A stretch of 64,000 nucleotides of DNA, taken from the UHGV virus genome UHGV-0212524, one strand, 5' to 3'. A program made the position numbers and the translations under genes. The DNA comes from a virus. Below, one piece after another: positions 26,981 to 39,008 of this stretch; position 1 is the first letter of the stretch, and each line of letters opens with the position of its first letter. The notes under the pieces are model-generated. The model did not search any database. It worked only from the letters and a program-made list of their open reading frames with translations, and was not told the DNA's origin.

Positions 26981-27019
26981 CCGCTAAGTCAACTACTATA
27001 ACAAAAAATAATAAGTTTA

Positions 27020-27050
27020 CCTACCTCCTTTACGGAGGTAGGTATTTTTT
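27020..27050. terminator. bidirectional rho-independent terminator
   Basis: CCTACCTCC..GGAGGTAGG hairpin flanked by A-run and T-run; between convergent operons. Confidence 0.75.
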
Positions 27051-27723
27051 ATTCTAATCCCATTTCCAGCGCAAGTGCACGGATCGTGTCGTAGTCACGC
27101 TGTTCGGCGTACTGACGAATTTCACTTTTCTGGGCAGACATCGCGTTGTGTAGCTGTTGGTCACGTTTCACAATAGCCGCCATTAACGCTTTACATTGCT
27201 CCAGCGTAAACGGTTCTATACGTGTATTCGACGTGTCCAGCCAATAATCCGGTGCAGTTTCAGACTGGATATATTGACCCAGCATCTGACGAGAGGTTTC
27301 ATCCGCTTGGAAATGATGGCCGTCAACTTCGATATAACCGTGACGCTGGTCTTCGTATCGGTGTTCAATTTCCAACATGATTTTCTGGATATCTAAATAG
27401 ATATAGCGAGACGTCGAGCGCATATTCGAACGAATCTCGTCCAGGTTAATCTCCAGAACGTCAGTAATGAATTCTTTTGCTTTGTTCAGTGTAAACTTCG
27501 CCTCAATAGGAGACATTTCGTAAGTTTGCATCTGAGCTAAAGCTTCTTCATCACTCATCCCTTCAATCAACTTATAGTGCAGTAATGCACAGAACCCCGT
27601 ACGACCACGGTCTTCGTTACCTACACGTTCCATGTAGTTACCGTGGCGGTCAATTGGCAGATCGTGCGCGAAATAACGCGCCCGAATCTCTTCTTTCGTT
27701 AAGCTTTTGTTAGAAGCAGACAT
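27049..27723 (-). CDS. hypothetical protein, last gene of the radical-SAM/Cys-peptide operon
   Basis: 224 aa; overlaps upstream gene by 25 nt; bidirectional terminator follows. Confidence 0.6.
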   Translation of the reverse strand: MSASNKSLTKEEIRARYFAHDLPIDRHGNYMERVGNEDRGRTGFCALLHYKLIEGMSDEEALAQMQTYEMSPIEAKFTLNKAKEFITDVLEINLDEIRSNMRSTSRYIYLDIQKIMLEIEHRYEDQRHGYIEVDGHHFQADETSRQMLGQYIQSETAPDYWLDTSNTRIEPFTLEQCKALMAAIVKRDQQLHNAMSAQKSEIRQYAEQRDYDTIRALALEMGLE

Positions 27724-28265
27724 TCTTCTTCTCCAACCATACCTAATTCTTGCAGCAAGCCAAAATCAACCAACTGGAAGGTTTCAGAGAGATCGTTTGA
27801 CCACACCACGTTTGCAATGTCGCGTTCTTCATCCGTTAACTGTGGTAACACATTTTCGTTGAACGTCTGATGCTCTACGTAATAAGCATCGTAGATAGAC
27901 GTAGAACGCAAGCAACGGATTGGCAGACGCGGGAAAGACACCGCTAATGCAGCAATAGATGCGCTACTCGGATTCTCCGCAGAATAACGAAGCAATTCGA
28001 TCTTGTGGCGTGGGTAATCCAGTACGCGTTGTTCGAAACCCGGATTACGTTTTTCGATTTCCACAACGGACTCATGGCCTGTCTCTGTACAGTAAACGGG
28101 AATCATCACGTTTAGCCCGTACTTAATCAACAGAGGTTTAATCTCATCTGTAAAGTCTTCACCAGGGATAATGGCGTGAACGTTATAGAGTTTGTGTTTG
28201 CGCAGAAAACGCTCAACCAGGTGGAGTTTACGCTTCGTAAAATTGTGGATCAGAATTGATTTCAT
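27699..28265 (-). CDS. hypothetical protein
   Basis: Start at internal ATG 28265 (GAGG RBS); overlaps the radical SAM gene 3' end. Confidence 0.55.
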   Translation of the reverse strand: MKSILIHNFTKRKLHLVERFLRKHKLYNVHAIIPGEDFTDEIKPLLIKYGLNVMIPVYCTETGHESVVEIEKRNPGFEQRVLDYPRHKIELLRYSAENPSSASIAALAVSFPRLPIRCLRSTSIYDAYYVEHQTFNENVLPQLTDEERDIANVVWSNDLSETFQLVDFGLLQELGMVGEEECLLLTKA

Positions 28266-29562
28266 TATTTGCCTCAGTAGGTTGTGCATTTAACGCACGT
28301 TTAGCTTGCTCACGCTCACGCGTACATTTCGGACAGTAACAAACAGACGAATCGTGCAGTGACGATGCGTGGACGGTGCCTGTACGTTGACGCCAGTATT
28401 CTGCCGCCATCAGTTTTGCGGTCGTCCAACCACATTGACGTCGTTCAGCGTGGTACGCCTTACGGTCTTCCAGTGTCCCTTCACCGTTTTCGTAGGAAGC
28501 AGCTGCACAGCTCCCACAACCGTGTTTCATCGGACAACCTAAGCACGTTTCAGGATAGTTGGTGTATTGCGTCTGAATCTCTTCCAGCAGTTTCCCGCCG
28601 TCTAAGCTAACAAACTCACGACCGACTAACTCAAACACCGCAGAGCGTGACGTTACCGTTGACATGAATCGGTTACAACCATACACCTTACGGTCAAAAC
28701 CTAAACAAGTCATAAACGTCAACGTCCCACAGAACGGACGTAAACGTTCAGGGTTATAACGGTGCGTGTCGTCGTACAGCAGTTTATCACGCCAATCTGG
28801 GTCCCAAATCTGACGGAAATCCAGACCTTCAGGAATGATGTGGGACAACACGTTACGTGGATTGGTGTGCAGCCCTTTCTCAATCCAATAATCCATCACC
28901 TCGATCATCTGCAACGCAATATCCGTTGCCATGCTCCGTGGAAGGATATCTTCGTACGTCACGTTACCCGAAATCGTACCACCACCCGCAATATCGATTA
29001 ACGACTTCATACTCGCCGCGTAATGCGGGAGGGTTTCGGTTGTAAAGGTTGCCTTGATACCCAGTTCAGCAATACCCACTTCTTTTAAGTAGTTATAGCC
29101 ACGAACAGCGGCTTCGTAAGAACCCTGACGCGTCGTGGTAAAGATACGATAACGGTCATGGACTTCTGGCAGCCCGTCGATAGACACACCGATGGAGAGT
29201 TTGTCTTTCCAACGCTCGACGATCTCACGGTTTAACGGACGGTCTAACAACGTCCCGTTCGTGGAGATACTGAACATATACGGTCGATTATGCTCCTTAC
29301 ACAACTGTTCTGCGGTTTCAAACGCCGCTAACAGCAGTTTCGGTTGCATAAAAGGTTCGCCGCCGATGATATCAATAATGACGTCGATGTTCGGAATATC
29401 TTTATCACGCTCAAAACAGGCGTGTAAGAAATCCACGATATCCGCCGCTTTGTTATTACGCGGATACTTACGTTCGTAACAATACTCACAGTCTAAGTTA
29501 CAAGACAGGTTCGTTACCACCTGGTAAGTACGTTGTGAACGTGGTGCTTCATTATTGCTCAT
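28228..29562 (-). CDS. radical SAM enzyme with C-terminal SPASM-like Cys cluster
   Basis: 444 aa; CNLDCEYC (Cx3Cx2C) near N-terminus, GGEP motif, C-terminal CLGCPMKHGCGSC plus further Cys. Confidence 0.8.
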   Translation of the reverse strand: MSNNEAPRSQRTYQVVTNLSCNLDCEYCYERKYPRNNKAADIVDFLHACFERDKDIPNIDVIIDIIGGEPFMQPKLLLAAFETAEQLCKEHNRPYMFSISTNGTLLDRPLNREIVERWKDKLSIGVSIDGLPEVHDRYRIFTTTRQGSYEAAVRGYNYLKEVGIAELGIKATFTTETLPHYAASMKSLIDIAGGGTISGNVTYEDILPRSMATDIALQMIEVMDYWIEKGLHTNPRNVLSHIIPEGLDFRQIWDPDWRDKLLYDDTHRYNPERLRPFCGTLTFMTCLGFDRKVYGCNRFMSTVTSRSAVFELVGREFVSLDGGKLLEEIQTQYTNYPETCLGCPMKHGCGSCAAASYENGEGTLEDRKAYHAERRQCGWTTAKLMAAEYWRQRTGTVHASSLHDSSVCYCPKCTREREQAKRALNAQPTEANNEINSDPQFYEA

Positions 29563-30469
29563 CTTTGCTTATCCTTTTACGCTCTGCATAAATCACGCGT
29601 TTAATGTACTCGTAAGCACCTACCCCGATAGAGCAAGCAAGCTGATTGCACCCACCGTTTAAGATAGCCGGTGCATTCTGAAGCTGATGTTCTGTTCCAT
29701 CTGCGTTCAAATACAACTCTTCGCTACAGACATTACACTCGTTTTCGAAAATCTTGCTGACAGACACGCCGCACGATTCTCCGGTTTGGACGTTCAGCCG
29801 TTCCATATTCTCCTGAATCTTTAAATAACCATAAACGAAGTTCATGATGTGATCGGGAGACAACGGTTTTGGCATTTGGGCATCAAACATCAGAGAAAAC
29901 GCACGGGGACGATAGTGGTACATCGCACGATGTAAATCCACAATATCTTCATACCAGCGCTTATCGGCTAACTGGTCACGCGTAATCACAGCCCAGGTTT
30001 GGAAGTTATCGAGTTCGTATAACGCTTCCAGTGCTTCGTGGCTATCCTCTTCAATAAAGCGCATAAAAGGGCGCTCAGAACGTTTGTAGCCATCAATTGA
30101 TACAAACACATGCTCAAAGTCTTTTAGCAGCGTAAGATGCGATTTACGCAGTTTTAAGCCGTTGGTATACAAGTGATGCTCAAGGTGCGGATGAGACACT
30201 TTCAGTTCGTTAACGAAATCCTCAATCTTACGTTGGACGAGTAGCGGTTCACCACCCGTCCAATGTATTTCCTTAATAGCTGGATTCTCTTGTAGTAATT
30301 CCAGGATACGTTCGCGTTGAAAAGCACGAGACGAATCTTCACGATTCATGTAGTAGGCTCCACCGCAGAAACTACAGTCTAGGTTACACTTAGACGTCGT
30401 AACTACGGACAATATAGTGGGTTTATCGTACAACTTCGTCGAGATCCTGGATTCCACATTGTCTATCAT
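29552..30469 (-). CDS. radical SAM enzyme (second, shorter; possible twitch/partial SPASM)
   Basis: 305 aa; CNLDCSFC (Cx3Cx2C), TGGEPLL, C-terminal Cys (C..CNVC..GGCNQLAC); 11-nt overlap with next gene. Confidence 0.75.
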   Translation of the reverse strand: MIDNVESRISTKLYDKPTILSVVTTSKCNLDCSFCGGAYYMNREDSSRAFQRERILELLQENPAIKEIHWTGGEPLLVQRKIEDFVNELKVSHPHLEHHLYTNGLKLRKSHLTLLKDFEHVFVSIDGYKRSERPFMRFIEEDSHEALEALYELDNFQTWAVITRDQLADKRWYEDIVDLHRAMYHYRPRAFSLMFDAQMPKPLSPDHIMNFVYGYLKIQENMERLNVQTGESCGVSVSKIFENECNVCSEELYLNADGTEHQLQNAPAILNGGCNQLACSIGVGAYEYIKRVIYAERKRISKDEQ

Positions 30470-30489: not shown

Positions 30490-31377
30490 TTAAATATAAT
30501 CGATGGCGAATAAAGGATCTTCGTCGAAGTTAACACCGGGTTTTAAAATCAGTGGCGAATTATACGCTTCCAGTAAACGGTTAAGTTCGTTGTAGCGGCT
30601 ATTCATCCGTTTGAGGTCTTCTAAGGTCACAACACGGTCAAGCATCGGCTTAACTGCTTCGGCTTCTTCGTCAGTCAGTTTAACTTTCGACAGCAAGAAG
30701 CTGACGAGTTTGGAAATGTCCGCTTCGGTAGCTGGGCTCTGACCAAAACGTACCTGAACCATATGCTGCATCCACGGTTTACGAATGCGTTTCGTAATCA
30801 CGTGTTCGTCAGTGATGGCTTTCCAAACCGAACGTTCACGAATCCATTCGAACTTATAGCTGTACGCCATTAAGTCGGCCAGATGCGTAATTCCGAGTTC
30901 TTGATAGCCTTCAATATCGATATACGGTTCCGTATCAAAATACTCTTTGGTATCTTTTTCAACCAACGCGTAATAGTTAGGGAACGCACCCAGGTAGTCT
31001 GGACTCCACCAACGACGGGCCATTGGTTTAGCATCGAGTTCTTCAAACGGTGTGAACATAAGTTCTAAGTCAACTGTATTATTTAACACACCGTCGCTAA
31101 AGAAATATTTACCGTCGATAAGTTTACCGCGTTGTGAGTTGTCACCGGTAAAGACAACGATGCTTTCGCCAACCATATCACGAATTTTGAACGTATTCTC
31201 AACCGTAAAGTTGTCACGATTAGCGATATGACGACCACGCACTTTCGGCCATTCCCCAGGAATCATGGCAATTAAGCGTACATCATCAGCAAGATGGTGA
31301 CGTACCGAATCAGGGGAAGAGATGTGAAGTGGATGATTGAACGTTGTCGTATATGCAAGATGTAGATCGTTCTTCAT
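30490..31377 (-). CDS. hypothetical protein between Cys-rich peptide genes and radical SAM enzymes
   Basis: 295 aa; GGAG RBS; no recognisable motif. Confidence 0.6.
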   Translation of the reverse strand: MKNDLHLAYTTTFNHPLHISSPDSVRHHLADDVRLIAMIPGEWPKVRGRHIANRDNFTVENTFKIRDMVGESIVVFTGDNSQRGKLIDGKYFFSDGVLNNTVDLELMFTPFEELDAKPMARRWWSPDYLGAFPNYYALVEKDTKEYFDTEPYIDIEGYQELGITHLADLMAYSYKFEWIRERSVWKAITDEHVITKRIRKPWMQHMVQVRFGQSPATEADISKLVSFLLSKVKLTDEEAEAVKPMLDRVVTLEDLKRMNSRYNELNRLLEAYNSPLILKPGVNFDEDPLFAIDYI

Positions 31378-31498: not shown

Positions 31499-31708
31499 TT
31501 ACCTGCCTCCCCCTGCACCTTTACTACAGCTACCACTGCACGCCCAGCTACAACTCCCATTACAGTTATAGTGAGTTAACGGTAATCCTGCCAAGTTATT
31601 CGTTGAGGACACCGTACCCTGATTAGCAATATAGTTATTCGCATCTGTGGTTTTAATGTAGCCTTCAACCTGACCGATTCTGTCTCGAATATTTTTGAGG
31701 GAAATCAC
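31499..31708 (-). CDS. Cys-rich precursor-like peptide C (leader + short CxxxC core)
   Basis: 69 aa; GTG start with AGGAGGTGA RBS; leader MISLKNIRDRIGQVEG...; core YNCNGSCSWACSGSCSKGAGGGR. Confidence 0.7.
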   Translation of the reverse strand: MISLKNIRDRIGQVEGYIKTTDANNYIANQGTVSSTNNLAGLPLTHYNCNGSCSWACSGSCSKGAGGGR

Positions 31709-31718
31709 TTCTCACCTC

Positions 31719-32114
31719 CTATCGTCCTGTGCACGACGAGCAGCCACCGGTACAGCTACTGGAGCACGATGCTGTACAGCCGCCCGTACAAGTGCCCGAG
31801 CACGCATTAGCGCACCCACCCGAACAACTCCCCGAACACCCTGAACAGCTACTTGAACACCCTGACGTACAGTTTGCAGAGCATGAAGAACCGCAACCAC
31901 CAGACGCGTTCCCTGTACAGCCACCAGAGCAACTCGAGCAGGTAAAGGAACACGTGCCCGCACAGTCATAATGCGCACGATTCCGACCACCGAACAGGTC
32001 CGCGTTATTCGTGGCCTTATTGCGGATGTAGTTCTGTACACCTGTGGTGTTTTTCAGCGCGATACTATCGACGTTATTAAGACGTCTTACTAATTCAGCT
32101 AATCCAACCGCCAT
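31719..32114 (-). CDS. Cys-rich precursor-like peptide B (leader + long CxxxC-repeat core)
   Basis: 131 aa; AGGGGGA RBS; ~55-aa leader then ~75 aa of C/S/G/T/A/N with ~20 Cys mostly spaced Cx3C; ends GR. Confidence 0.7.
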   Translation of the reverse strand: MAVGLAELVRRLNNVDSIALKNTTGVQNYIRNKATNNADLFGGRNRAHYDCAGTCSFTCSSCSGGCTGNASGGCGSSCSANCTSGCSSSCSGCSGSCSGGCANACSGTCTGGCTASCSSSCTGGCSSCTGR

Positions 32115-32123
32115 TTCTTCCCC

Positions 32124-32516
32124 CTATCGACCAGAGCAACCGCCGGAGCAAGCACCCGAACAGTTATGCGAACAACGCCCAGTACAACTTCCAGTACAGG
32201 TACTTGTACAACTGCTAGAACAAGCCCCCGAGCAGCCAGAGCATCCCGAACAGTTGCCCCCACAGGACGAAGAGCAGCTACCCACGCACGACGCTGAACA
32301 GTTTCCTGAACAGCTCGAGCAACCGTGAGTACATCCGTTAGAACATGTCCACGAACACGCTCCTCCGCAGTCTAAACGCGAAGGCGTCCAACCGGAAAAC
32401 GAATCTGCCGCGTTATGCGCTTTCGATGCGACCTGCGCATTGACACGAGGGCCGGTAGCGACTGTATTTTCTACTGTGGTTAACCGATCGCGCATTTGTT
32501 TAACACTAATCGCCAT
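32124..32516 (-). CDS. Cys-rich precursor-like peptide A (leader + long CxxxC-repeat core)
   Basis: 130 aa; AAGGA RBS; leader MAISVKQMRDRLTTVEN...; core DCGGACSWTCSNGCTHGC...; ends GR. Confidence 0.7.
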   Translation of the reverse strand: MAISVKQMRDRLTTVENTVATGPRVNAQVASKAHNAADSFSGWTPSRLDCGGACSWTCSNGCTHGCSSCSGNCSASCVGSCSSSCGGNCSGCSGCSGACSSSCTSTCTGSCTGRCSHNCSGACSGGCSGR

Positions 32517-32540
32517 TACGCTTCCTTAAAATTAAAATAG

Positions 32541-32573
32541 AGGAGGAACCAGCCATAAGCATAGTTCCTCCTG
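32541..32573 (-). terminator. intra-operon hairpin (attenuator/terminator) between fibre gene and Cys-peptide genes
   Basis: AGGAGGAAC..GTTCCTCCT inverted repeat followed on the minus strand by a T-rich run, then RBS of peptide A. Confidence 0.5.
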
Positions 32574-32581
32574 TAATTAAA

Positions 32582-33787
32582 TTATTTCGTACCCGCTTCC
32601 GCCTGTACGTCATCACGAGACGTCAGGTTAGCGTTAACGTGTACTGGGGCCTGAACCACACCACCGTATCTCTTGTGGAGATAACCGGTGTGCGGGTTAT
32701 CTGCCGCGATGTGGTTTTGTAGGTTCTGGTTCGCTTGACTGATTGCGTTCGTGTTATTGTTAACTTGCTGTTTAAGCGCATCCAGGTTCTGTTGTACCTG
32801 ATCGATTTTCTGATCGGTTTCTTGACCCTGTTGCTCTAACGCGGCAACACGCTGAATAACCTGATTCAGTTTTGTGTTTAAATCGTTGATGCTCTTTTGC
32901 AGTTGTAACACTAACGAGTTCAGGTTCGCTAACGCTAAGGCCATTTTCTGGTAGTTTTGAGCAACCACGTTAAGTTGGTCGTTCCACGCTTCCAGAGAGT
33001 TGACAACAGCGTCAATACGCTTACCTAAAGCTTCGTCCGCTTTCTTCAGTGCATTGATTTCCGTAATCGTTGCGTCGATGGCAGACTGGACGTCACGAAT
33101 AAGCGCACGGATTTCAGTTTCTGTTAACCCGTTAACCTGATGAATATCAAGATGGTGAACGTTACCGGTTGCGTTGATGTGTGCATTTAAAGCGTCTAAG
33201 AAGTCATTTTTCAGGCTTTCTAAAATCGCTTTAATGTTCTCTAACTGTACCGCGTCACCGGAACTGATCGCATCTTTAATACCCGCCAATACGGTAATGA
33301 TATATTCAAAACCGTAGATGTCACCCACGTCTTTATACGTCGGTGCAGATGGGAATGTATCCGGTACGTTACGCAGGTCTTTAAACGCAATCGTACGGTT
33401 ATCGAGGTTTAATTCAGCAATCGCCTGTTCGATAGCCACAATGTTCGCAGACTGTGGACCACCAACGACCTGCGCAGATACCGTAATATCTGTTGGAATC
33501 GCTGTGTTAGTGACCACCACCGCCATAACAATCTCGCGGTTTTTAGTCAGCTTTTCATAAGTCGGGTGTGCAAAAATCAACTCATAATCGGTACCACGTT
33601 CGTAGGTTGCATCCGGTCGGTTAGCAACACGTAAACGGAACGTGTCCGCAAAGAACGGGCCGTCAGGAAAAGCAAAAGCACGGTTTACTTTACCTGTACC
33701 TAACGTAATCTGACGCTCTACAGCGTTAGACGTTAGCGAGCCCGTTAAATCTAAAGGATATTGATAAACAATGGAGGCCATGGCCAC
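32582..33787 (-). CDS. tail fibre-like protein with coiled-coil C-terminal half
   Basis: 401 aa; N-terminal FPDGPFF..RLRV....TDYEL module shared with three upstream giants; Q/N/L-rich coiled coil. Confidence 0.7.
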   Translation of the reverse strand: MAMASIVYQYPLDLTGSLTSNAVERQITLGTGKVNRAFAFPDGPFFADTFRLRVANRPDATYERGTDYELIFAHPTYEKLTKNREIVMAVVVTNTAIPTDITVSAQVVGGPQSANIVAIEQAIAELNLDNRTIAFKDLRNVPDTFPSAPTYKDVGDIYGFEYIITVLAGIKDAISSGDAVQLENIKAILESLKNDFLDALNAHINATGNVHHLDIHQVNGLTETEIRALIRDVQSAIDATITEINALKKADEALGKRIDAVVNSLEAWNDQLNVVAQNYQKMALALANLNSLVLQLQKSINDLNTKLNQVIQRVAALEQQGQETDQKIDQVQQNLDALKQQVNNNTNAISQANQNLQNHIAADNPHTGYLHKRYGGVVQAPVHVNANLTSRDDVQAEAGTK

Positions 33788-33821: not shown

Positions 33822-36800
33822 TTAAGATGTAAACATAAGATTGAACTGGAGTTTGTCGATATCGCGAGTTTCCGCCGGATTCACGGCATCGTACGCGGTC
33901 GCTACGTAAACGGTTAGCGTACCGTTAGCGTAAGACGATTTCACCGGTGGGTTAGTTCCGGTCTGACCATCTCGGACAATGAGCGTAGGTTCACTCGGGA
34001 GATTGTCAAACTGACCCTTGACCGCTTTATACACCAAACCAGATTGCGCAGCCAGTTCAGTGTCCGTAAAGACAAAGAACGGTGTGTCGATATCAGCCTG
34101 CTTGACGATGGTGTTCGATTCAACGTCAATCAACTGTACCGCCCCAAACTTCGTACGATAACTTTCATACTCGTTCTTCGGAATAACGAACGTGACATGA
34201 ACACGAACCTCCTCGGCAGGTTTAAACCCACTGTGCTCTTTTTCCAGGTACTGGTTGGCGGTTAACGTTACCGTTTGTTCAGTCATCGTACCACCGGCCT
34301 GGTTTAATGCATACCGAGCTTCAACAATACCGGTTGGTGCAGCAAGTCGTAGTTTCAGAGCACGATTCGCCGTTCCTGGATTACCTGGCACCTGAACACG
34401 CAAACTCAATGCTAAGTAAGCATTCGTTCCGGTAGTCGGTTTCGTATACGCACCAATCCATTTCATGTTCGCAGACGCTGCCTGCATGTTCTCAGAAGCA
34501 GTGGCTGTCGCAATGTTAGCAGCTACCGCTTTCTGCCAGAATTGGTCAGCGCAGTTCTCATACGCTACCCTGGCCACGCTCTTATAACCCGAATACGTTT
34601 CCTGAATTGGTAACTTAGGACGCGTCGTAATGCCGGACAGTGAACCCCATTTCTGACCGTCAACATACCCTTCACCTTTCGACGCAGACGCCGTAGGTGC
34701 TTTAACGGGCTTGTTAACCAGTGTTAATAGAGGACCCGTCTTTCTGTCAAACGCTGCTGCTACATCGTGTTGGTCGATAATTGCTGCGTGGTCTTCCAGT
34801 TCTTTCACACGACCCAAACGTTTTACTTTGTCGATACTGATACCAGTAATACGGCTGGAATCGGTGGTTACTGTCCCAACGAACAGTCTTGTTGAGGTAT
34901 CGGCTAACTGCTCCAAACCGATGCGGTATTGCGCGGTAGAACCCGACACCTCAGCGTGCACGTAGAACGTCTGGTTAGCGTGATTGGATGGGAACTCACT
35001 GCTTAAATCCACAGACCACGTTGGGAGTGTGTAACTGCTGCTACCGAAATCTAATTTGACTTCTTCTGTCAAATACAGAATCCAACCTTCCGCTGTTTCC
35101 ACACCGGCAATAATAACCGCCTGACCTCCGGTTGAGAACGTCGTGTCGTTAACGAACTCTGCGGCTGTATACGCGTTACCTGAACAGAAAACACGGTCAG
35201 CTTTAGAGTAAATCAACGCCATCTTGTCCCAATCACCGGCACCCATATAGCACCCAGATTCTGGTCTATGTTCAGGGGCCATCTGCCGTAACTGTGATTT
35301 ACCTGCAACGCGTGTCCAACCTGAACCAGGGTCGAAGGTATATTTAGCAGCGTAGCCCAGGGCGTTTAAGTCCCCGATATTTCGGGTAGTTAACGTATAA
35401 GGTAACCAGATACCGAAGTTAGTTCCATCCGCAGATGCAAAAATAGGCTGCCCCACGCGCCTCGTTTTACCTCCCGCTCCCCCATTTAGTGACTGATAAC
35501 TTAAACCATAATCGAGGTCTAAGAACCAGTCCACCAACTTAAAGGTGGCTGAGTTGAAACGTAAGTAGCCGTTCTCTTTAGATGGGCTCACCATGAAGTA
35601 ATAGATGTCAAGAATTCGACGTCCGTTACTTGAGGTTTTCATGCACGAAACTTGCAACAAGTCAAATTCGCACACGGTGTTGATACCCAACATCCAAAGA
35701 GCAAACAATGCATTACCGGTTTGATGTGCAGCACTAATACGTTCGTTCGCGTAACCATTTGCTTGACCAGATGGCGCACCGTCAACGATCATCCGAATCA
35801 TTTTCTGCCGATCGGCTTCTTCTAGCGTTAAGCGTTCGGAAGACAATGCGAAGTTACCGTAGATGTTACGATACGGGAACGTTTCTGCTTTGGTCAAATA
35901 CCAGCCGTTCAACTGTCCATGACGCTCCTCAGGGATCATGCACGCAGCCATACAGCTAAGCTGCTCGTAAAGCGTTGGATCGACTTCACGACGGTTGTTG
36001 TTCGGACCGTACCCACTATACCCAGAAACATCGTAAGGTTTGTTCGGATCAACTTCCACTTCGATCGTGTAACGGTTACGAGGGTTCGATAACCAGACCT
36101 TATTCGAACCACCAATCCCTACTGGATAAGACAAACCGATGGTGTAAATGGAGCCACGGCCTTTATCCCAGGTAAACGTTCCTTCGCCCGAGGTGTTGTT
36201 TGGGTTATCGTAACGCAGATAATCGAAAAGCTCTCTGCCTTGTGTACTCTTAATAGAAACATTAGGCATTTGGTCCGCATCGGCAATTTGCCAACAGGAA
36301 AGCATCATTCCTGTACCGTTGGGTTTAGCATACGTCGCGAAACAACGGTTGTTTGCCTGGCCACCACCCCACTTACGATTGGTTCCTACAGTTGAACCAT
36401 CTGCGAACGAGAGTGTAGTAGTAGCATCAGCCTTGATGGGGAAGCGTTCGCGGCCTTCTAACGTAACCTTGCCCGTCAACGTATCGATTGTAAAACTTGT
36501 TGCCCATTGAAGGAAATTAATCGTCGTACCGTCGGCCGCTGCAAACCACACGGTAGGCATATGGTTCACACGAATCACGCTATCGCGCACAGCACACGCG
36601 TGGTTACATTCTGGACCGTGAACAAAGTTACGCCCGATCGTCCATTTAGCACGACCCTCCGGTGTGAGATATGTAAAGAATTGACCCGTTTGCGACTCTT
36701 CGGTTTTCTGACCAATACGCAAGCAGAGGTTATCTCCGAATTGTCCCATCTCGCCGGTTAGAGTTACACGTTCAAATTCTAACGTAGTGTTAGTAGACAA

Positions 36801-39008
36801 ATCGGCCTTACGTAGACGCCAAGCTGCTACGGCGTAAGCGGAGTTATTTACCGTTGAACGGAGAAGATAAACGTAGTCCTCAACCAACACGACATCGTCA
36901 GCTTCCGGCCACGGGTTCCAGGTTTGTTCCACAGTACCACTGGGGTTGCCGTTACGGTACACGGGCATCGTAACGCGACATACCACCGTGTGCTTAGTGT
37001 GGTCCATCGAGCCATTAAACAGCACCAAATAACGGTTATTGTCAGAACCCAGGCAAATAATCGCTTCCTGGCCACCGATCAATATCGCTATTAGGGTCAC
37101 CCCAGGATATTTACTCATCCCGGCAGGGTGATATTTCACTGAGGTCTGCTGCGGATTTACAAACGCGTTTGACGTGTCAATGTCAGCATAGCCGTAATAA
37201 ATAGCTTCCGTACCCGGCACGCCGTTAGAACCGTTACGGAGCGAATAAACCTTACCCTGCTGATACCCAACAACCCCTTTCTGGTAGGACTGGTTTTTGG
37301 TATAGCCTGCGTAGTTACCTAACGCTGGGATAGGTAAGAAGTTCTTGTTACCGAATTTCGCTCCACCTACCGTCCACGCCGGTAAGATGGTATTCAGTTT
37401 ATCAGAGACCTTCTTAATCTCTTTTGCGAACAACCAGCCTTGACGCGACGTGACAGCTTTATCGTTAGTGGTGTCAATTGCATCCCAGAGCTGTAAGATA
37501 CCGTCAACCGTTGCACTACCAATCGGGACGTTATCCAAGTCAGCAGTGGTGTGGGTGTGCGTTTTCAAACTCTTGTTTTTCAACACGTTCGTTAACGCTT
37601 TTGTCACAGGCTTATCACTCGGTATGGTGTTATCCATCTTATCGATACCGAAATCGGTTTTCGTTAAGGTTAACACCATATTGTCGCCTGTTTTAACAAA
37701 CCCTTTACCGTTAACGGTATAGTCATCGTCAACGTACAAGTCCAAGCGGTCTTTTAATTCTGTTACAGCTTTCTGGGAGATAGCAGTACCTAACGCCGCA
37801 GACGTAGAGATATTCGTAATCGAGAACAACCCATAAACTGATTCGGACGCCGTGGGAATATTCGCGTTTAACGTAACCGGGTTAGTCTGTTTTGCGGTAC
37901 CGTACGGTTTTACAGTGTCTGACGCTTTGAAATACGCGTTTGCTTCAAGCAACGTTACTGACGTCAGATACATGTTCACCATTTCTGGTGTAACCAGGTA
38001 CACGGAGTTATAAACTGGCGCTAATACGTCCTGTTCCGACCCCGAGTGAACCCAAAGCGTATTCAGACCCGCACTGAATTCAACCGCTAAACCCGATTCG
38101 TTGTTGTCCTGGTCTGCTTTAATCACCAACGGTTGTGGCGAGGTAATTAACCACTTATCACCACGAATACTGATGATGTGGCCACCTGACGTTTTAAACG
38201 TTAATTCATTACCGTTCGTGGTACCCCATCGACCGTAAACGGTGCCGAGGGCTTCACCCATTAACTGGTCAACGTCCGATTGCTCAATACCCGCTGAACC
38301 CATCAGCGTAGCCAACTCGTCAATCGTCAACCCAAACGCTTTTGTAGCGTCAACAGCACGACCTAATACCGGGAGAGCAGCAATGTCATCAGTGGTATAA
38401 TGATGCGCGTTAGGGTTACGGTGATGCTGGTATAACTCTTCGTCGAAAACCTTTTTACCGTTCTCGTAAATCAAGTTAGTGACTTCACTGAACGCAGCAT
38501 CTAATTCCGTAGAACGTTTGATGATTTTCTTGCGAATGTCTTCTAACGCCTTAACAACCTCATCCCTCAGAATCGCTTCTTCTAAGTTAGCAGGCGGGTC
38601 GATAGGCTGAATAACCGGCGCATACGCCATTAGTTCAGACCAGTCCACGTTACGTGGGTCTTTCAGGTCAGTACGAACTAAGAACTTCCCGATTTCAGAT
38701 TGCGGTACACGGTATTGACGTGCTACCCCTAAAATCTCATATTCGATTTCTGTTGCAGTAAGCAACATAAACCCGCCGTAAATCTGATCTTGTTCAGCTT
38801 CTGCGAGTTCTTTAAAGTAATAGCCTAAATAGTAGTCCAACCCCTCAATCAGAGTACGACGTCCGTTAGGCGCGGTATCGTCGGCTACTGTGAGTTTTAA
38901 TCCGATACGATAAAAAGGTCCTTCAGGCGGAATGACCACGTTAAATCGGTTAGGGTACGTCGCTGTGCTTAGCGTACCGTTAAACTGCGCCGCGTCTTCT
39001 CTCGGCAT
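33822..39008 (-). CDS. giant tail fibre/spike-like structural protein (1728 aa)
   Basis: N-terminal IPPEGPFY..LKLTV....GLDYYL module; AGGAG RBS. Confidence 0.75.
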   Translation of the reverse strand: MPREDAAQFNGTLSTATYPNRFNVVIPPEGPFYRIGLKLTVADDTAPNGRRTLIEGLDYYLGYYFKELAEAEQDQIYGGFMLLTATEIEYEILGVARQYRVPQSEIGKFLVRTDLKDPRNVDWSELMAYAPVIQPIDPPANLEEAILRDEVVKALEDIRKKIIKRSTELDAAFSEVTNLIYENGKKVFDEELYQHHRNPNAHHYTTDDIAALPVLGRAVDATKAFGLTIDELATLMGSAGIEQSDVDQLMGEALGTVYGRWGTTNGNELTFKTSGGHIISIRGDKWLITSPQPLVIKADQDNNESGLAVEFSAGLNTLWVHSGSEQDVLAPVYNSVYLVTPEMVNMYLTSVTLLEANAYFKASDTVKPYGTAKQTNPVTLNANIPTASESVYGLFSITNISTSAALGTAISQKAVTELKDRLDLYVDDDYTVNGKGFVKTGDNMVLTLTKTDFGIDKMDNTIPSDKPVTKALTNVLKNKSLKTHTHTTADLDNVPIGSATVDGILQLWDAIDTTNDKAVTSRQGWLFAKEIKKVSDKLNTILPAWTVGGAKFGNKNFLPIPALGNYAGYTKNQSYQKGVVGYQQGKVYSLRNGSNGVPGTEAIYYGYADIDTSNAFVNPQQTSVKYHPAGMSKYPGVTLIAILIGGQEAIICLGSDNNRYLVLFNGSMDHTKHTVVCRVTMPVYRNGNPSGTVEQTWNPWPEADDVVLVEDYVYLLRSTVNNSAYAVAAWRLRKADLSTNTTLEFERVTLTGEMGQFGDNLCLRIGQKTEESQTGQFFTYLTPEGRAKWTIGRNFVHGPECNHACAVRDSVIRVNHMPTVWFAAADGTTINFLQWATSFTIDTLTGKVTLEGRERFPIKADATTTLSFADGSTVGTNRKWGGGQANNRCFATYAKPNGTGMMLSCWQIADADQMPNVSIKSTQGRELFDYLRYDNPNNTSGEGTFTWDKGRGSIYTIGLSYPVGIGGSNKVWLSNPRNRYTIEVEVDPNKPYDVSGYSGYGPNNNRREVDPTLYEQLSCMAACMIPEERHGQLNGWYLTKAETFPYRNIYGNFALSSERLTLEEADRQKMIRMIVDGAPSGQANGYANERISAAHQTGNALFALWMLGINTVCEFDLLQVSCMKTSSNGRRILDIYYFMVSPSKENGYLRFNSATFKLVDWFLDLDYGLSYQSLNGGAGGKTRRVGQPIFASADGTNFGIWLPYTLTTRNIGDLNALGYAAKYTFDPGSGWTRVAGKSQLRQMAPEHRPESGCYMGAGDWDKMALIYSKADRVFCSGNAYTAAEFVNDTTFSTGGQAVIIAGVETAEGWILYLTEEVKLDFGSSSYTLPTWSVDLSSEFPSNHANQTFYVHAEVSGSTAQYRIGLEQLADTSTRLFVGTVTTDSSRITGISIDKVKRLGRVKELEDHAAIIDQHDVAAAFDRKTGPLLTLVNKPVKAPTASASKGEGYVDGQKWGSLSGITTRPKLPIQETYSGYKSVARVAYENCADQFWQKAVAANIATATASENMQAASANMKWIGAYTKPTTGTNAYLALSLRVQVPGNPGTANRALKLRLAAPTGIVEARYALNQAGGTMTEQTVTLTANQYLEKEHSGFKPAEEVRVHVTFVIPKNEYESYRTKFGAVQLIDVESNTIVKQADIDTPFFVFTDTELAAQSGLVYKAVKGQFDNLPSEPTLIVRDGQTGTNPPVKSSYANGTLTVYVATAYDAVNPAETRDIDKLQFNLMFTS

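What the first reader, a model, noticed from the sequence alone, without database searches (positions are those of the whole stretch)
31499..32516. Three paralogous peptides with conserved ~45-55 aa leader and iterated C-x3-C core ending in Gly-Arg
Leaders align across the three peptides (M.(I/V)...(I/L)R(D/R)R(L/I)..VE/D ... NNAD/NLAG ... Y(D/N)C.G.CS(W/F).CS). The cores are almost pure C/S/G/T/A/N with Cys every fourth residue, about 20 Cys in the two long ones, and all end in G-R. The leader-core split and tandem diversified copies are what is expected of RiPP precursors. The extreme Cx3C periodicity is unusual and could equally fit a metal-binding or ladder-like cross-linked rod.
Basis: seen in the sequence. 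Interest (0 to 1): 0.85.

Follow-up and report, generated by a model that had tools for sequence, protein, structure and literature searches.

The report
Radical-SAM-matured cysteine-ladder tail-fibre module
Three small cysteine-ladder proteins of a SPN3US-like giant phage are real genes, and they are most likely tail-fibre parts that two neighbouring radical SAM enzymes cross-link, rather than precursors of a secreted peptide; such a virion component has not been described in the literature I could search.

Summary
Window 32124-32516, 31719-32114 and 31499-31708 (minus strand) encode paralogous proteins of 130, 131 and 69 aa. They carry 21, 20 and 4 Cys, mostly spaced C-x3-C. Each has a Shine-Dalgarno site, and pN/pS is 0.18-0.28 against three related phages.

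The window is a Seoulvirus-like (SPN3US-like) jumbo phage. The genes lie in the tail-fibre/baseplate operon, followed by a 295-aa accessory protein, a radical SAM enzyme and a radical SAM/SPASM enzyme. The SPASM enzyme's best family match is NCBIfam TIGR04115 (CXXX-repeat-target maturase), but below the cut-off.

The leader-core RiPP reading is only partly supported. The same module (PHROG 6085) is fused to the C-terminus of recognisable tail-fibre proteins in P2-like, T7-like, lambda-J-like and other phages. In each case the same accessory and radical SAM cassette sits beside it. In 77 of 80 viral loci holding a homologous SPASM enzyme, a CxxxC-repeat protein is adjacent. There is no protease, exporter or RRE, and the core is at least as constrained as the "leader".

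Best reading (about 0.6): a stand-alone fibre module, covalently cross-linked (probably by thioethers) in the cytoplasm. The chemistry and virion incorporation are inferred, not shown. Public records mis-annotate these genes, so published virion proteomics could not detect them.

The parts
32124..32516 (-). pepA: 130-aa Cys-ladder protein. N-terminal helix, linker ending NAADSFSGWTPSRLD, then 21 Cys.
   Evidence: ORF. Cys count and SD site. PHROG 6085 at E 1.6e-36, and TIGR04114 at 19.5 bits against a cut-off of 20. pN/pS 0.18-0.23. In the AF2 model only helices 5-20 and 23-33 are ordered.
31719..32114 (-). pepB: 131-aa Cys-ladder paralogue with 20 Cys and the junction NNADLFGGRNRAHYDCAGTCSFTCS.
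   Evidence: PHROG 6085, E 1.6e-42; pN/pS 0.27-0.28. The SPN3US orthologue is annotated in the wrong frame as gp166.
31499..31708 (-). pepC: 69-aa short paralogue. Same helix, linker and junction, but only 4 Cys.
   Evidence: PHROG 6085, E 1.6e-25, profile positions 2-66; pN/pS 0.20-0.26. This is the only one of the three that gene callers usually find.
30490..31377 (-). 295-aa accessory protein (SPN3US gp165 homologue) of unknown fold. It has a conserved C-terminal helical motif, ADISKLVSFLLSKVKLTDEEAEAVKPML.
29552..30469 (-). rSAM1: 305-aa radical SAM enzyme with CNLDCSFC and GGE motifs and no clear SPASM domain.
   Evidence: Pfam Radical_SAM E 8e-15. Homologues sit in the same cassette in L028, L033, L096 and L007, and the enzyme is fused to rSAM2 in L004. 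Its stop overlaps the rSAM2 start by 11 nt.
28228..29562 (-). rSAM2: 444-aa radical SAM/SPASM enzyme with CNLDCEYC and seven conserved C-terminal Cys (C278, C296, C340, C343, C349, C352, C377).
   Evidence: Best NCBIfam match TIGR04115 at 124.8 bits (cut-off 350), then PapB at 110.8 bits. Conserved Cys. Nearest solved structure CteB 5WGG, E 1.3e-12. 35% identical over 399 aa to the C-terminal half of the T7-like fusion protein.
32582..33787 (-). 401-aa coiled-coil virion structural protein (SPN3US gp167 homologue), immediately upstream.
   Evidence: PHROG 2163 at E 7e-103. gp167 was found by mass spectrometry in SPN3US virions and is not flagged as a head protein.
33822..39008 (-). 1728-aa virion protein (SPN3US gp168 homologue), a baseplate/tail-fibre candidate.
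   Evidence: PHROG 7449/2163. PMC5694885 lists gp168-170 as baseplate/tail-fibre candidates.
32540..32572 (-). Stem-loop followed by a U-rich tract, between the 401-aa gene and pepA. Possibly an attenuator or terminator.
   Evidence: RNA fold -21.8 kcal/mol, z -2.96.
27049..28289 (-). Last two genes of the operon: 196 aa (PHROG 7988) and 224 aa (DUF4376). They are followed by a bidirectional terminator at 27018-27044.
   Evidence: The SPN3US homologues gp162 and gp161 were not detected in virions.

Best explanation
pepA, pepB and pepC are stand-alone copies of a cysteine-ladder fibre module. In other phages this module is the C-terminal part of tail-fibre proteins, and occasionally an internal part.

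Each protein has three sections. The first is a short N-terminal helix with a 3-4-3-4 hydrophobic pattern, like a coiled coil. The second is a linker ending in N-x-A-D-x-(F/L)-x-G...(H/Y)-Y-D. The third is a run of C-x3-C units, with a few C-x2-C, made otherwise of Ser, Gly, Thr, Ala and Asn.

Proposed mechanism:
1. The proteins are made late, from the tail-fibre operon.
2. In the reducing cytoplasm they are modified by the radical SAM/SPASM enzyme (444 aa) and the second radical SAM enzyme (305 aa), with help from the 295-aa accessory protein.
3. The most likely chemistry is Cys-derived thioether cross-links, as made by the nearest characterised enzymes (PapB, CteB). This would turn the repeat into a covalently stapled rod that is insensitive to redox state and to proteases.
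4. The rod joins the baseplate or tail-fibre apparatus, probably by docking its N-terminal helix onto the coiled-coil gp167-like or gp168-like proteins encoded just upstream.

Shown here: the genes are real and under purifying selection; the module is homologous to the C-termini of tail-fibre proteins; the four-part cassette is conserved and sits in tail modules of several unrelated phage lineages; the enzyme has a complete radical SAM motif and a seven-Cys SPASM signature.

Inferred, not shown: the substrate relationship, the thioether chemistry, oligomerisation and incorporation into the virion.
For: 1. Real genes: SD sites, and pN/pS 0.18-0.28 with synonymous sites near saturation.

2. Operon context. 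The upstream genes are homologues of SPN3US gp167 and gp168. PMC5694885 finds both in virions by mass spectrometry, does not flag them as head proteins, and calls gp168-170 baseplate/tail-fibre candidates. The operon ends with a DUF4376 protein and a terminator.

3. Fusion evidence.
- L028 is a P2-like tail module in the order baseplate V, W, J, I, then a 384-aa protein, then the cassette, then a tail assembly chaperone, sheath and tube. The first ~300 residues of the 384-aa protein hit tail-fibre PHROGs (E 1e-55 to 1e-46), and it ends in a CxxxC tail. The cassette (accessory, rSAM/SPASM, rSAM) follows it.
- The L033 401-aa, L027 568-aa and L004 206-aa proteins combine an N-terminal domain with a C-terminal PHROG 6085 module. 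That N-terminal domain hits tail-fibre-type PHROGs in L033 and L004, but only a weak virion-structural-protein PHROG in L027.
- L096: a large 1066-aa protein that I read as a lambda-J-like tail-tip protein (my reading of its sequence, no family search), then a 475-aa coiled-coil fibre ending ...YFRCSNACSWTC..., then the cassette, then lysis genes.
- T7-like contigs: a short Phage_T7_tail gene, then a small fibre protein, then the Cys-rich protein, then the accessory protein, then a fused rSAM1-rSAM2.

4. Co-occurrence. In 77 of 80 viral loci with a homologous SPASM enzyme, a CxxxC-repeat ORF is adjacent. L060, whose enzyme is a true TIGR04115 member (581 bits), also lies between baseplate J and a tail-fibre gene.

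5. Enzyme class. The best matches are TIGR04115 and PapB, the nearest solved structure is CteB, and the SPASM Cys are conserved.

6. The core is at least as constrained as the 'leader'. This fits a structural element better than a diversifying RiPP core.

7. No protease, exporter or immunity gene lies in the operon.
Against: - There is no direct evidence that the three proteins are in the virion. SPN3US virion proteomics did not list them. That result is uninformative, because the ORFs were missing or mis-framed in the search database, and the cores have almost no tryptic sites.
- In this phage the module is not fused to a fibre domain, so attachment is inferred from fusions seen elsewhere.
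- The AF2 model of the core has low confidence (pLDDT below 50), so no rod structure is shown.
- The SPASM enzyme scores far below the TIGR04115 and PapB cut-offs, so the chemistry cannot be transferred with confidence.
- The roles of rSAM1 and of the accessory protein, whose fold has no relative, are unknown.
- Radical SAM enzymes are oxygen-sensitive, yet these phages are propagated aerobically. This point is from general knowledge and was not tested.
Confidence: 0.6

Rival explanations
1. Classical RiPP. The ~50-aa N-terminal part is a leader that guides the radical SAM enzymes and is then removed. The cross-linked Cys-rich core is released at lysis as a free bioactive peptide, for example an antimicrobial, a signal or an anti-defence factor.
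For: The precursors are short and sit beside two radical SAM genes. There are three diversified tandem copies. The enzyme belongs to the peptide-maturase SPASM class. Bacterial relatives with signal-like N-termini sit next to a radical SAM gene (P0021, P0022, P0025; L092).
Against: No protease, exporter, immunity gene or RRE domain lies in the operon. The 'leader' is homologous to the end of long fibre domains in other phages. The core is not hypervariable. The cassette lies inside tail modules in at least five lineages.
Confidence: 0.15
2. Non-virion assembly factor. The modified Cys-rich proteins act only inside the cell, as a scaffold, template or chaperone for folding or trimerising the large fibre proteins, and are not part of the finished particle.
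For: The cassette occupies the slot of the fibre chaperone (P2 gpG) in L028. The SPN3US homologues of the other cassette genes (gp161-165) are absent from virions.
Against: In other phages the module is covalently part of the fibre polypeptide, and no cleavage site or protease is evident. An expensive radical SAM modification of a transient helper would be unusual; this last point is inference.
Confidence: 0.12
3. Metal-binding Cys ladder. The repeats coordinate Zn, Fe or Fe-S along the rod, as metallothioneins do, or as His-x-His sites do in T4 fibre needles. On this reading the radical SAM enzymes serve another purpose or only assist.
For: Extreme Cys density with regular spacing. Known fibre tips use axial metal sites; this is from my own knowledge and was not tested.
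Against: The tight co-occurrence with a peptide-maturase-type SPASM enzyme (77 of 80 loci) is not explained by simple metal binding. There is no similarity to any metal-binding family.
Confidence: 0.08

Closest known systems
NCBIfam TIGR04114/TIGR04115 and Pfam PF27846 (tSAM_targ_Cxxx_rpt): the 'CXXX-repeat target' radical SAM peptide-modification system. It is defined by bioinformatics, and I found no experimental study of it.
   Same: Tandem C-x3 repeats rich in small residues lie next to a radical SAM/SPASM maturase. TIGR04115 is the best match of the 444-aa enzyme, and TIGR04114 is the only NCBIfam match of pepA and pepB. True TIGR04115 members (434-581 bits) occur in viral contigs beside Cys-rich proteins, at least one of them inside a tail module.
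   Different: All scores are below the curated cut-offs: 124.8 against 350, and 19.5 and 17.6 against 20. This clade has a second radical SAM enzyme and a 240-300-aa accessory protein of unknown fold, where the TIGR04115-type loci have a ~105-118-aa protein. It also has a distinct junction motif, (H/Y)YDC-G-x-CS(W/F)-x-CS. I found no description of a link to phage tail fibres.
Ranthipeptide and SCIFF systems: PapA/PapB (freyrasin; Cys-X3-Asp thioethers) and CteA/CteB.
   Same: The enzymes are SPASM radical SAMs acting on Cys-containing repeats. PapB is the second-best family match (110.8 bits) and CteB (5WGG) is the nearest solved structure. The i to i+4 register resembles the CX3D motif of PapA (my own knowledge; PMC12373016 covers PapB chemistry).
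   Different: There is no acidic acceptor, because position i+4 is another Cys. There are 20 or more repeats instead of 6. The maturase starts directly at the radical SAM core, with no N-terminal RRE: alignments begin at profile positions ~85-106 of the RRE-bearing families. The targets are domains of structural proteins up to 1.8 kaa long. The score is below the PapB cut-off of 340.
Phage tail-fibre maturation helpers (P2 gpG, T4 gp38 and gp57A, Mu-type tail-fibre assembly proteins).
   Same: The genomic slot is the same, directly after the fibre gene and before the sheath and tube genes in L028. The presumed purpose is also the same: producing a correctly folded distal fibre.
   Different: Those helpers are non-enzymatic chaperones (my own knowledge). 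Here the slot holds two radical SAM enzymes and a protein of novel fold.
Cys- or metal-stabilised rods: the Tenebrio beta-helical antifreeze protein (disulfide ladder) and the T4 gp37/gp12 needles (His-x-His metal sites).
   Same: Regular spacing of a cross-linking or ligating residue along an elongated repeat made of small residues. This resemblance is from memory only.
   Different: The period differs (4 against 12 for the antifreeze protein). There is no sequence or fold match. Disulfides cannot form during cytoplasmic assembly, which is the rationale for enzymatic cross-links here (inference).

Membership tests
NCBIfam CXXX-repeat radical SAM target system (TIGR04114/TIGR04115; Pfam PF27846) | The target protein reaches the TIGR04114 repeat-model cut-off (20 bits). 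| tested here: not met
   pepA 19.5 bits, pepB 17.6 bits, pepC no hit. The Pfam copy used gave no hit. The two longer proteins are borderline, just under the cut-off.
NCBIfam CXXX-repeat radical SAM target system (TIGR04114/TIGR04115; Pfam PF27846) | The maturase reaches the TIGR04115 equivalog cut-off (350 bits). | tested here: not met
   124.8 bits. It is the top hit but far below the cut-off. The viral enzymes in L059, L060 and L037 reach 498, 581 and 434 bits, so the window enzyme belongs to a divergent sister clade.
NCBIfam CXXX-repeat radical SAM target system (TIGR04114/TIGR04115; Pfam PF27846) | The Cys-repeat target gene is adjacent to the SPASM maturase gene. | tested here: met
   Both lie in the same operon in the window. 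Adjacency holds in 77 of 80 related viral loci.
RiPP (ribosomally synthesised and post-translationally modified peptide) in the strict sense | A leader peptide is recognised by an RRE/PqqD-like domain and removed by a dedicated protease, and the product is exported. | tested here: not met
   No PqqD/RRE, peptidase or transporter family appeared in any operon protein. The maturase starts at the radical SAM core. The accessory protein has no known fold, so a novel recognition protein cannot be excluded.
RiPP (ribosomally synthesised and post-translationally modified peptide) in the strict sense | The leader is conserved and the core is variable among family members. | tested here: not met
   Core pN/pS is 0.13-0.28 against 0.24-0.40 for the leader. 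N-terminal parts vary from 2 to 456 aa between homologues, while the junction and the Cys register are conserved.
Sactipeptide/ranthipeptide maturase class (SPASM radical SAM thioether synthases) | A CX3CX2C radical SAM motif plus a C-terminal seven-Cys SPASM signature for two auxiliary clusters. | tested here: met
   CNLDCEYC at residues 21-28. C278, C296, C340, C343, C349, C352 and C377 are invariant across five divergent homologues.
Sactipeptide/ranthipeptide maturase class (SPASM radical SAM thioether synthases) | Formation of Cys-S-to-carbon thioether bridges in the substrate. | not testable with these tools
   This needs high-resolution MS or NMR of co-expressed peptide. The only support is homology to PapB (110.8 bits, cut-off 340) and CteB (E 1e-12).
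Phage tail-fibre proteins | The gene lies in the tail-fibre/baseplate gene module. | tested here: met
   Window: it lies directly after the gp167 and gp168 homologues. Homologues lie in tail modules of P2-like, T7-like, lambda-J-like and other phages.
Phage tail-fibre proteins | Homology to, or fusion with, recognised tail-fibre domains. | tested here: met
   The PHROG 6085 module is fused C-terminally to tail-fibre PHROG domains in L028 (E 1e-55), L033 and L004. The window proteins themselves carry only the module plus a short helix.
Phage tail-fibre proteins | Physical presence in the virion. | not testable with these tools
   The published SPN3US virion MS lists gp167-173 but could not list these ORFs, because they were absent or mis-framed in the annotation.

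The most novel reading that the evidence does not exclude
A widespread class of phage tail fibres carries a cysteine-ladder rod that dedicated phage-encoded radical SAM enzymes must covalently cross-link before or during assembly. The module forms at least 282 protein clusters at 50% identity, and at least 447 IMG/VR stretches encode a homologue of the SPASM enzyme. The class is seen in jumbo myophages and in T7-like, P2-like and lambda-J-like phages. If true, it would be the first RiPP-type radical chemistry used to build a virion structural or receptor-binding component. It would also mean that the orphan 'CXXX-repeat target' radical SAM families in the databases are largely phage fibre-maturation systems.
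Probability: 0.5. Interest if true: 0.9.

Novelty: new variant of a known kind. Interest (0 to 1): 0.8.

Why it matters
- It would give a biological role to an orphan, database-only radical SAM/target family (TIGR04114/TIGR04115, PF27846).
- It would add enzymatic radical cross-linking to the ways phages stabilise fibres. Known ways include chaperones, intramolecular chaperone domains and metal sites.
- It offers a rationale: covalent cross-links that can be made in the reducing cytoplasm, where disulfides cannot form.
- It exposes a systematic annotation gap. These genes are missed or called in the wrong frame in SPN3US-type genomes, so existing proteomic maps of a model jumbo phage are blind to them.
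- SPN3US has genetic tools (amber mutants), so the hypothesis can be tested directly.
- The stapled rods could be useful as hyperstable display scaffolds or as determinants in host-range engineering.

Tried and rejected
- Structure prediction of pepA with a 19-sequence alignment gave an unusable model for the Cys core (pLDDT below 50), so no fold search was run on it.
- PDB sequence search with pepA returned only chance hits, with E at least 0.1.
- Nine literature searches found no description of these peptides or of radical-SAM-modified tail fibres. They covered SPN3US with radical SAM, CXXX repeat, TIGR04115, phage-encoded RiPP, tail fibre with thioether, receptor-binding protein with radical SAM, and SPASM/ranthipeptide with phage. 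One search did lead to the SPN3US virion proteomics paper. The SPFM paper only says that the rSAM genes 'enhance host metabolism'.
- The Haft and Basu 2011 paper could not be retrieved.
- SPN3US virion proteomics was checked and is uninformative for the peptides.
- The scan of 185,579 species genomes with the junction motif gave a single locus, so a prophage or bacterial origin of this clade was not supported.
- The N-terminal domains of several long homologues (P0078, P0097, P0118, P0142, P0071, P0076) had no PHROG match beyond the module itself.
- DNA-level tandem repeats were considered as an origin by slippage and rejected. Only two short arrays of about 2 copies at period 12 and one 2.4-copy array at period 21 were found.
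- Alternative reading frames, including the annotated SPN3US gp166 frame and the antisense ORFs annotated in pEa_SNUABM_29, were rejected on pN/pS.
Full report
**1. What is in the sequence**

pepA has 21 Cys, pepB 20 and pepC 4. The Cys-to-Cys spacing is 4 in 17 of 20 intervals for pepA, 15 of 19 for pepB and 3 of 3 for pepC. The remaining intervals are 3, with one of 8. The first Cys is at residue 49-51. After that point the sequence is about 90% Cys, Ser, Gly, Thr, Ala and Asn.

Each ORF is preceded by a strong Shine-Dalgarno sequence. The three proteins align with each other and with their orthologues, and all three hit PHROG 6085 at E 1e-25 to 1e-42. The 'G-R' ending holds in this window but not in pepB orthologues.

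**2. Are they genes?**

The region is open in several frames, and public annotations disagree about it. I therefore compared the window with three related phages.

In the proposed frame pN/pS is 0.18-0.28, pS is 0.64-0.85, and third-position differences dominate. All other frames give ratios above 1, apart from the antisense frame that shares the wobble position. The Cys register is invariant.

At DNA level there is almost no tandem repetition, so the periodicity is maintained by selection on the protein. The Cys-ladder pattern occurs nowhere else in the window in a plausible frame.

**3. Context**

The window is a jumbo phage of the Seoulvirus (SPN3US) type, about 74% identical in nucleotides to SPN3US, STsAS and Erwinia phage pEa_SNUABM_29. 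It is identical in the tested gene to IMG/VR UViG 3300045988_095954.

The minus-strand operon runs in this order:
- three very large virion proteins, homologues of SPN3US gp170-168;
- a 401-aa coiled-coil protein, the gp167 homologue (PHROG 2163);
- a stem-loop with a U-rich tail;
- pepA, pepB and pepC;
- a 295-aa protein (PHROG 8030);
- a 305-aa radical SAM enzyme;
- a 444-aa radical SAM/SPASM enzyme;
- two small proteins, one carrying DUF4376;
- a bidirectional terminator at 27018-27044.

In SPN3US, mass spectrometry found gp167 and gp168-173 in virions and did not flag them as head proteins, and the paper's Table 1 calls gp168-170 baseplate/tail-fibre candidates (PMC5694885). gp161-166 were not detected.

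That negative result says nothing about the Cys-rich proteins. In the SPN3US record one of them is annotated in the wrong frame (gp166), and the others are not annotated at all. pEa_SNUABM_29 carries antisense ORFs in their place, and STsAS has no annotation there. The exact pepA and pepB sequences are absent from a 15-billion-protein collection, whereas the short pepC is present in hundreds of assemblies.

**4. The enzymes**

The 444-aa enzyme has CX3CX2C at residues 21-28 and seven C-terminal Cys that are invariant across divergent homologues, which is a SPASM signature. Its best family match is NCBIfam TIGR04115, 'radical SAM peptide maturase, CXXX-repeat target family', at 124.8 bits against a cut-off of 350. 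Next is the PapB ranthipeptide maturase at 110.8 bits against a cut-off of 340. The nearest solved structure is the thioether synthase CteB (5WGG, E 1.3e-12).

The enzyme begins at the radical SAM core and has no N-terminal RRE. pepA and pepB score 19.5 and 17.6 bits on TIGR04114 (cut-off 20), the matching 'Cys-rich repeat' target model. The system is therefore a divergent sister of a database-defined radical SAM/target pair, not a member by the curated thresholds.

**5. Related loci change the interpretation**

Homologues of pepB are few because gene callers miss them. Those that were found (~210 aa) have the same junction, HYDC-G-G-CSWTC, and the same Cys ladder, but ~130-aa N-terminal domains.

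Their contigs are T7-like. The order is tube, nozzle and further genes, then a short gene with the T7 tail-fibre N-terminal domain, then a small fibre protein, then the Cys-rich protein, then a 238-aa protein, then a 668-aa radical SAM protein. The 668-aa protein is a fusion of an rSAM1-like half and an rSAM2-like half. The latter is 35% identical over 399 aa to the window enzyme, E 1e-58. The 238-aa protein shares the C-terminal motif of the window's 295-aa protein.

Scanning IMG/VR with an alignment of the SPASM enzyme gave at least 447 viral stretches. In the best 80 loci, 77 have a CxxxC-repeat ORF next to the enzyme. These ORFs are 39-574 aa long with 6-92 Cys, and their non-Cys N-terminal parts are 1-456 aa.

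L028 is decisive. It is a P2-like tail module that reads baseplate V, W, J, I, then a 384-aa protein, then the cassette, then a tail assembly chaperone, sheath and tube. The first ~300 residues of the 384-aa protein match tail-fibre PHROGs (E 1e-55 to 1e-46), and its last ~40 residues are a CxxxC tail. The cassette is a 250-aa accessory protein, an rSAM/SPASM and an rSAM.

Other loci agree:
- The Cys-rich proteins of L033, L027 and L004 combine an N-terminal domain with a C-terminal PHROG 6085 module. That domain hits tail-fibre-type PHROGs in L033 and L004. In L027 the only other hit is a weak virion-structural-protein PHROG.
- L096 is the single hit among 185,579 species genomes. It has a large 1066-aa protein that I read as a lambda-J-like tip protein (my reading of the sequence, no family search), then a 475-aa coiled-coil fibre ending in the module, then the full cassette with two accessory paralogues, then lysis genes.
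- The enzymes of L059, L060 and L037 pass the TIGR04115 cut-off at 498, 581 and 434 bits. L060 lies between baseplate J and a tail-fibre gene.
- A profile search of 1.84 billion representatives found 282 clusters, 50-1803 aa long, including proteins with ~550 aa of repeats and one with the module in an internal position.

The four-part cassette of this clade is conserved across these lineages: Cys-ladder module, accessory protein, rSAM1 and rSAM2/SPASM.

**6. Interpretation**

The ~50-aa 'leader' of the window proteins corresponds to the last part of the fibre shaft in the fused homologues. That part is a coiled-coil segment followed by the N-x-A-x-x-L-x-G...(Y/F)-x-C junction. AF2 predicts only an N-terminal helix with confidence, and that helix has a 3-4-3-4 hydrophobic pattern in all three paralogues (read directly from the sequence).

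The core is at least as constrained as the leader. No protease, exporter, immunity gene or RRE is present.

The best-supported reading is therefore that pepA, pepB and pepC are stand-alone fibre modules. They would be cross-linked by the two radical SAM enzymes and mounted on the fibre or baseplate proteins encoded upstream.

Thioether chemistry is inferred only from the nearest characterised enzymes. An attractive rationale, which is inference, is that enzymatic cross-links can be installed in the reducing cytoplasm where virions assemble and disulfides cannot form.

The rivals are a true released RiPP (0.15), an intracellular assembly factor (0.12) and a metal-binding ladder (0.08). None is excluded.

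**7. Dead ends**

The accessory protein gives a confident model (pLDDT 87) but has no fold relative. The role of rSAM1 is unknown. The literature searches found nothing on these proteins or on radical-SAM-modified fibres.

**8. Novelty and score**

The pairing of an rSAM/SPASM enzyme with a CXXX-repeat target exists in NCBIfam and Pfam as an uncharacterised predicted system, so the kind is known. Four things are new:
- this divergent clade with two enzymes and an accessory protein;
- its stand-alone triple-paralogue form in Seoulvirus-type jumbo phages;
- the consistent placement of the module in, or fused to, tail fibres across unrelated phages;
- the finding that the genes are systematically mis-annotated.

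I rate it a new variant of a known kind, with interest 0.8. The main claim rests on comparative genomics and needs mass spectrometry and genetics.

Noticed in passing
L002 8614-8949 (SPN3US gp166/ACQ60_gp100); L001 7573-7845 and 8080-8292; L003 6990-8105: Public records mis-annotate the Cys-ladder genes. SPN3US gp166 is a wrong frame of the pepB orthologue. pEa_SNUABM_29 annotates antisense ORFs. STsAS annotates nothing there. The exact pepA and pepB sequences are absent from the 15-billion-protein collection.
   Followed up: yes
window 32540-32572 (-): A stable stem-loop (-21.8 kcal/mol, z -2.96) followed by a U-rich tract lies between the 401-aa structural gene and pepA. It may attenuate transcription into the peptide and rSAM genes.
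   Followed up: partly
window 31499-31708 (pepC) and its clusters: pepC-type proteins occur on ~220-244-kb contigs in hundreds of Salmonella and E. coli isolate assemblies deposited as bacterial genomes. This suggests that SPN3US-like jumbo phages travel with isolates, as a carrier state or as contamination.
   Followed up: no
window 28228-29562 (-), residues ~408-413 of the 444-aa enzyme: The Seoulvirus-clade SPASM enzymes carry an extra C-terminal tail with a conserved CYCxxC motif. It is absent from the T7-like and other homologues.
   Followed up: no
L095 1299-1976 and 5988-7022: A phage locus has a PF27846-type Cys-rich protein a few kb from a reverse-transcriptase gene (RVT_1) and Phage_XkdX. 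It may be a diversity-generating retroelement in the same fibre region. No rSAM is visible in the stretch held.
   Followed up: no
P0071-P0077, P0118: Giant proteins of 1.5-1.8 kaa carry about 550 residues of uninterrupted CxxxC repeats. P0118 has the module internally, followed by a 290-aa C-terminal domain, so the ladder is not always the distal tip.
   Followed up: partly
L092 1416-1724 and 1864-3078; P0021, P0022, P0025: Cys-repeat proteins from non-viral metagenome contigs have an N-terminus that looks like a twin-arginine signal (SRREFFKKAAK; my reading of the sequence, not tested). In L092 such a protein is followed by a 404-aa radical SAM gene. This looks like a cellular counterpart of the phage system.
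   Followed up: partly
[not shown]
   Followed up: yes
one search hits H27-H30 (Salmonella phages SPFM20, SPFM8, SPFM1, SPFM12); P0066-P0070: Some SPFM phages match only 40-60 nt of the cassette, and their gp165-like proteins (228-284 aa) align over only 8-21% of the query. The cassette seems to have been replaced or to have diverged strongly within otherwise near-identical Seoulvirus genomes.
   Followed up: no
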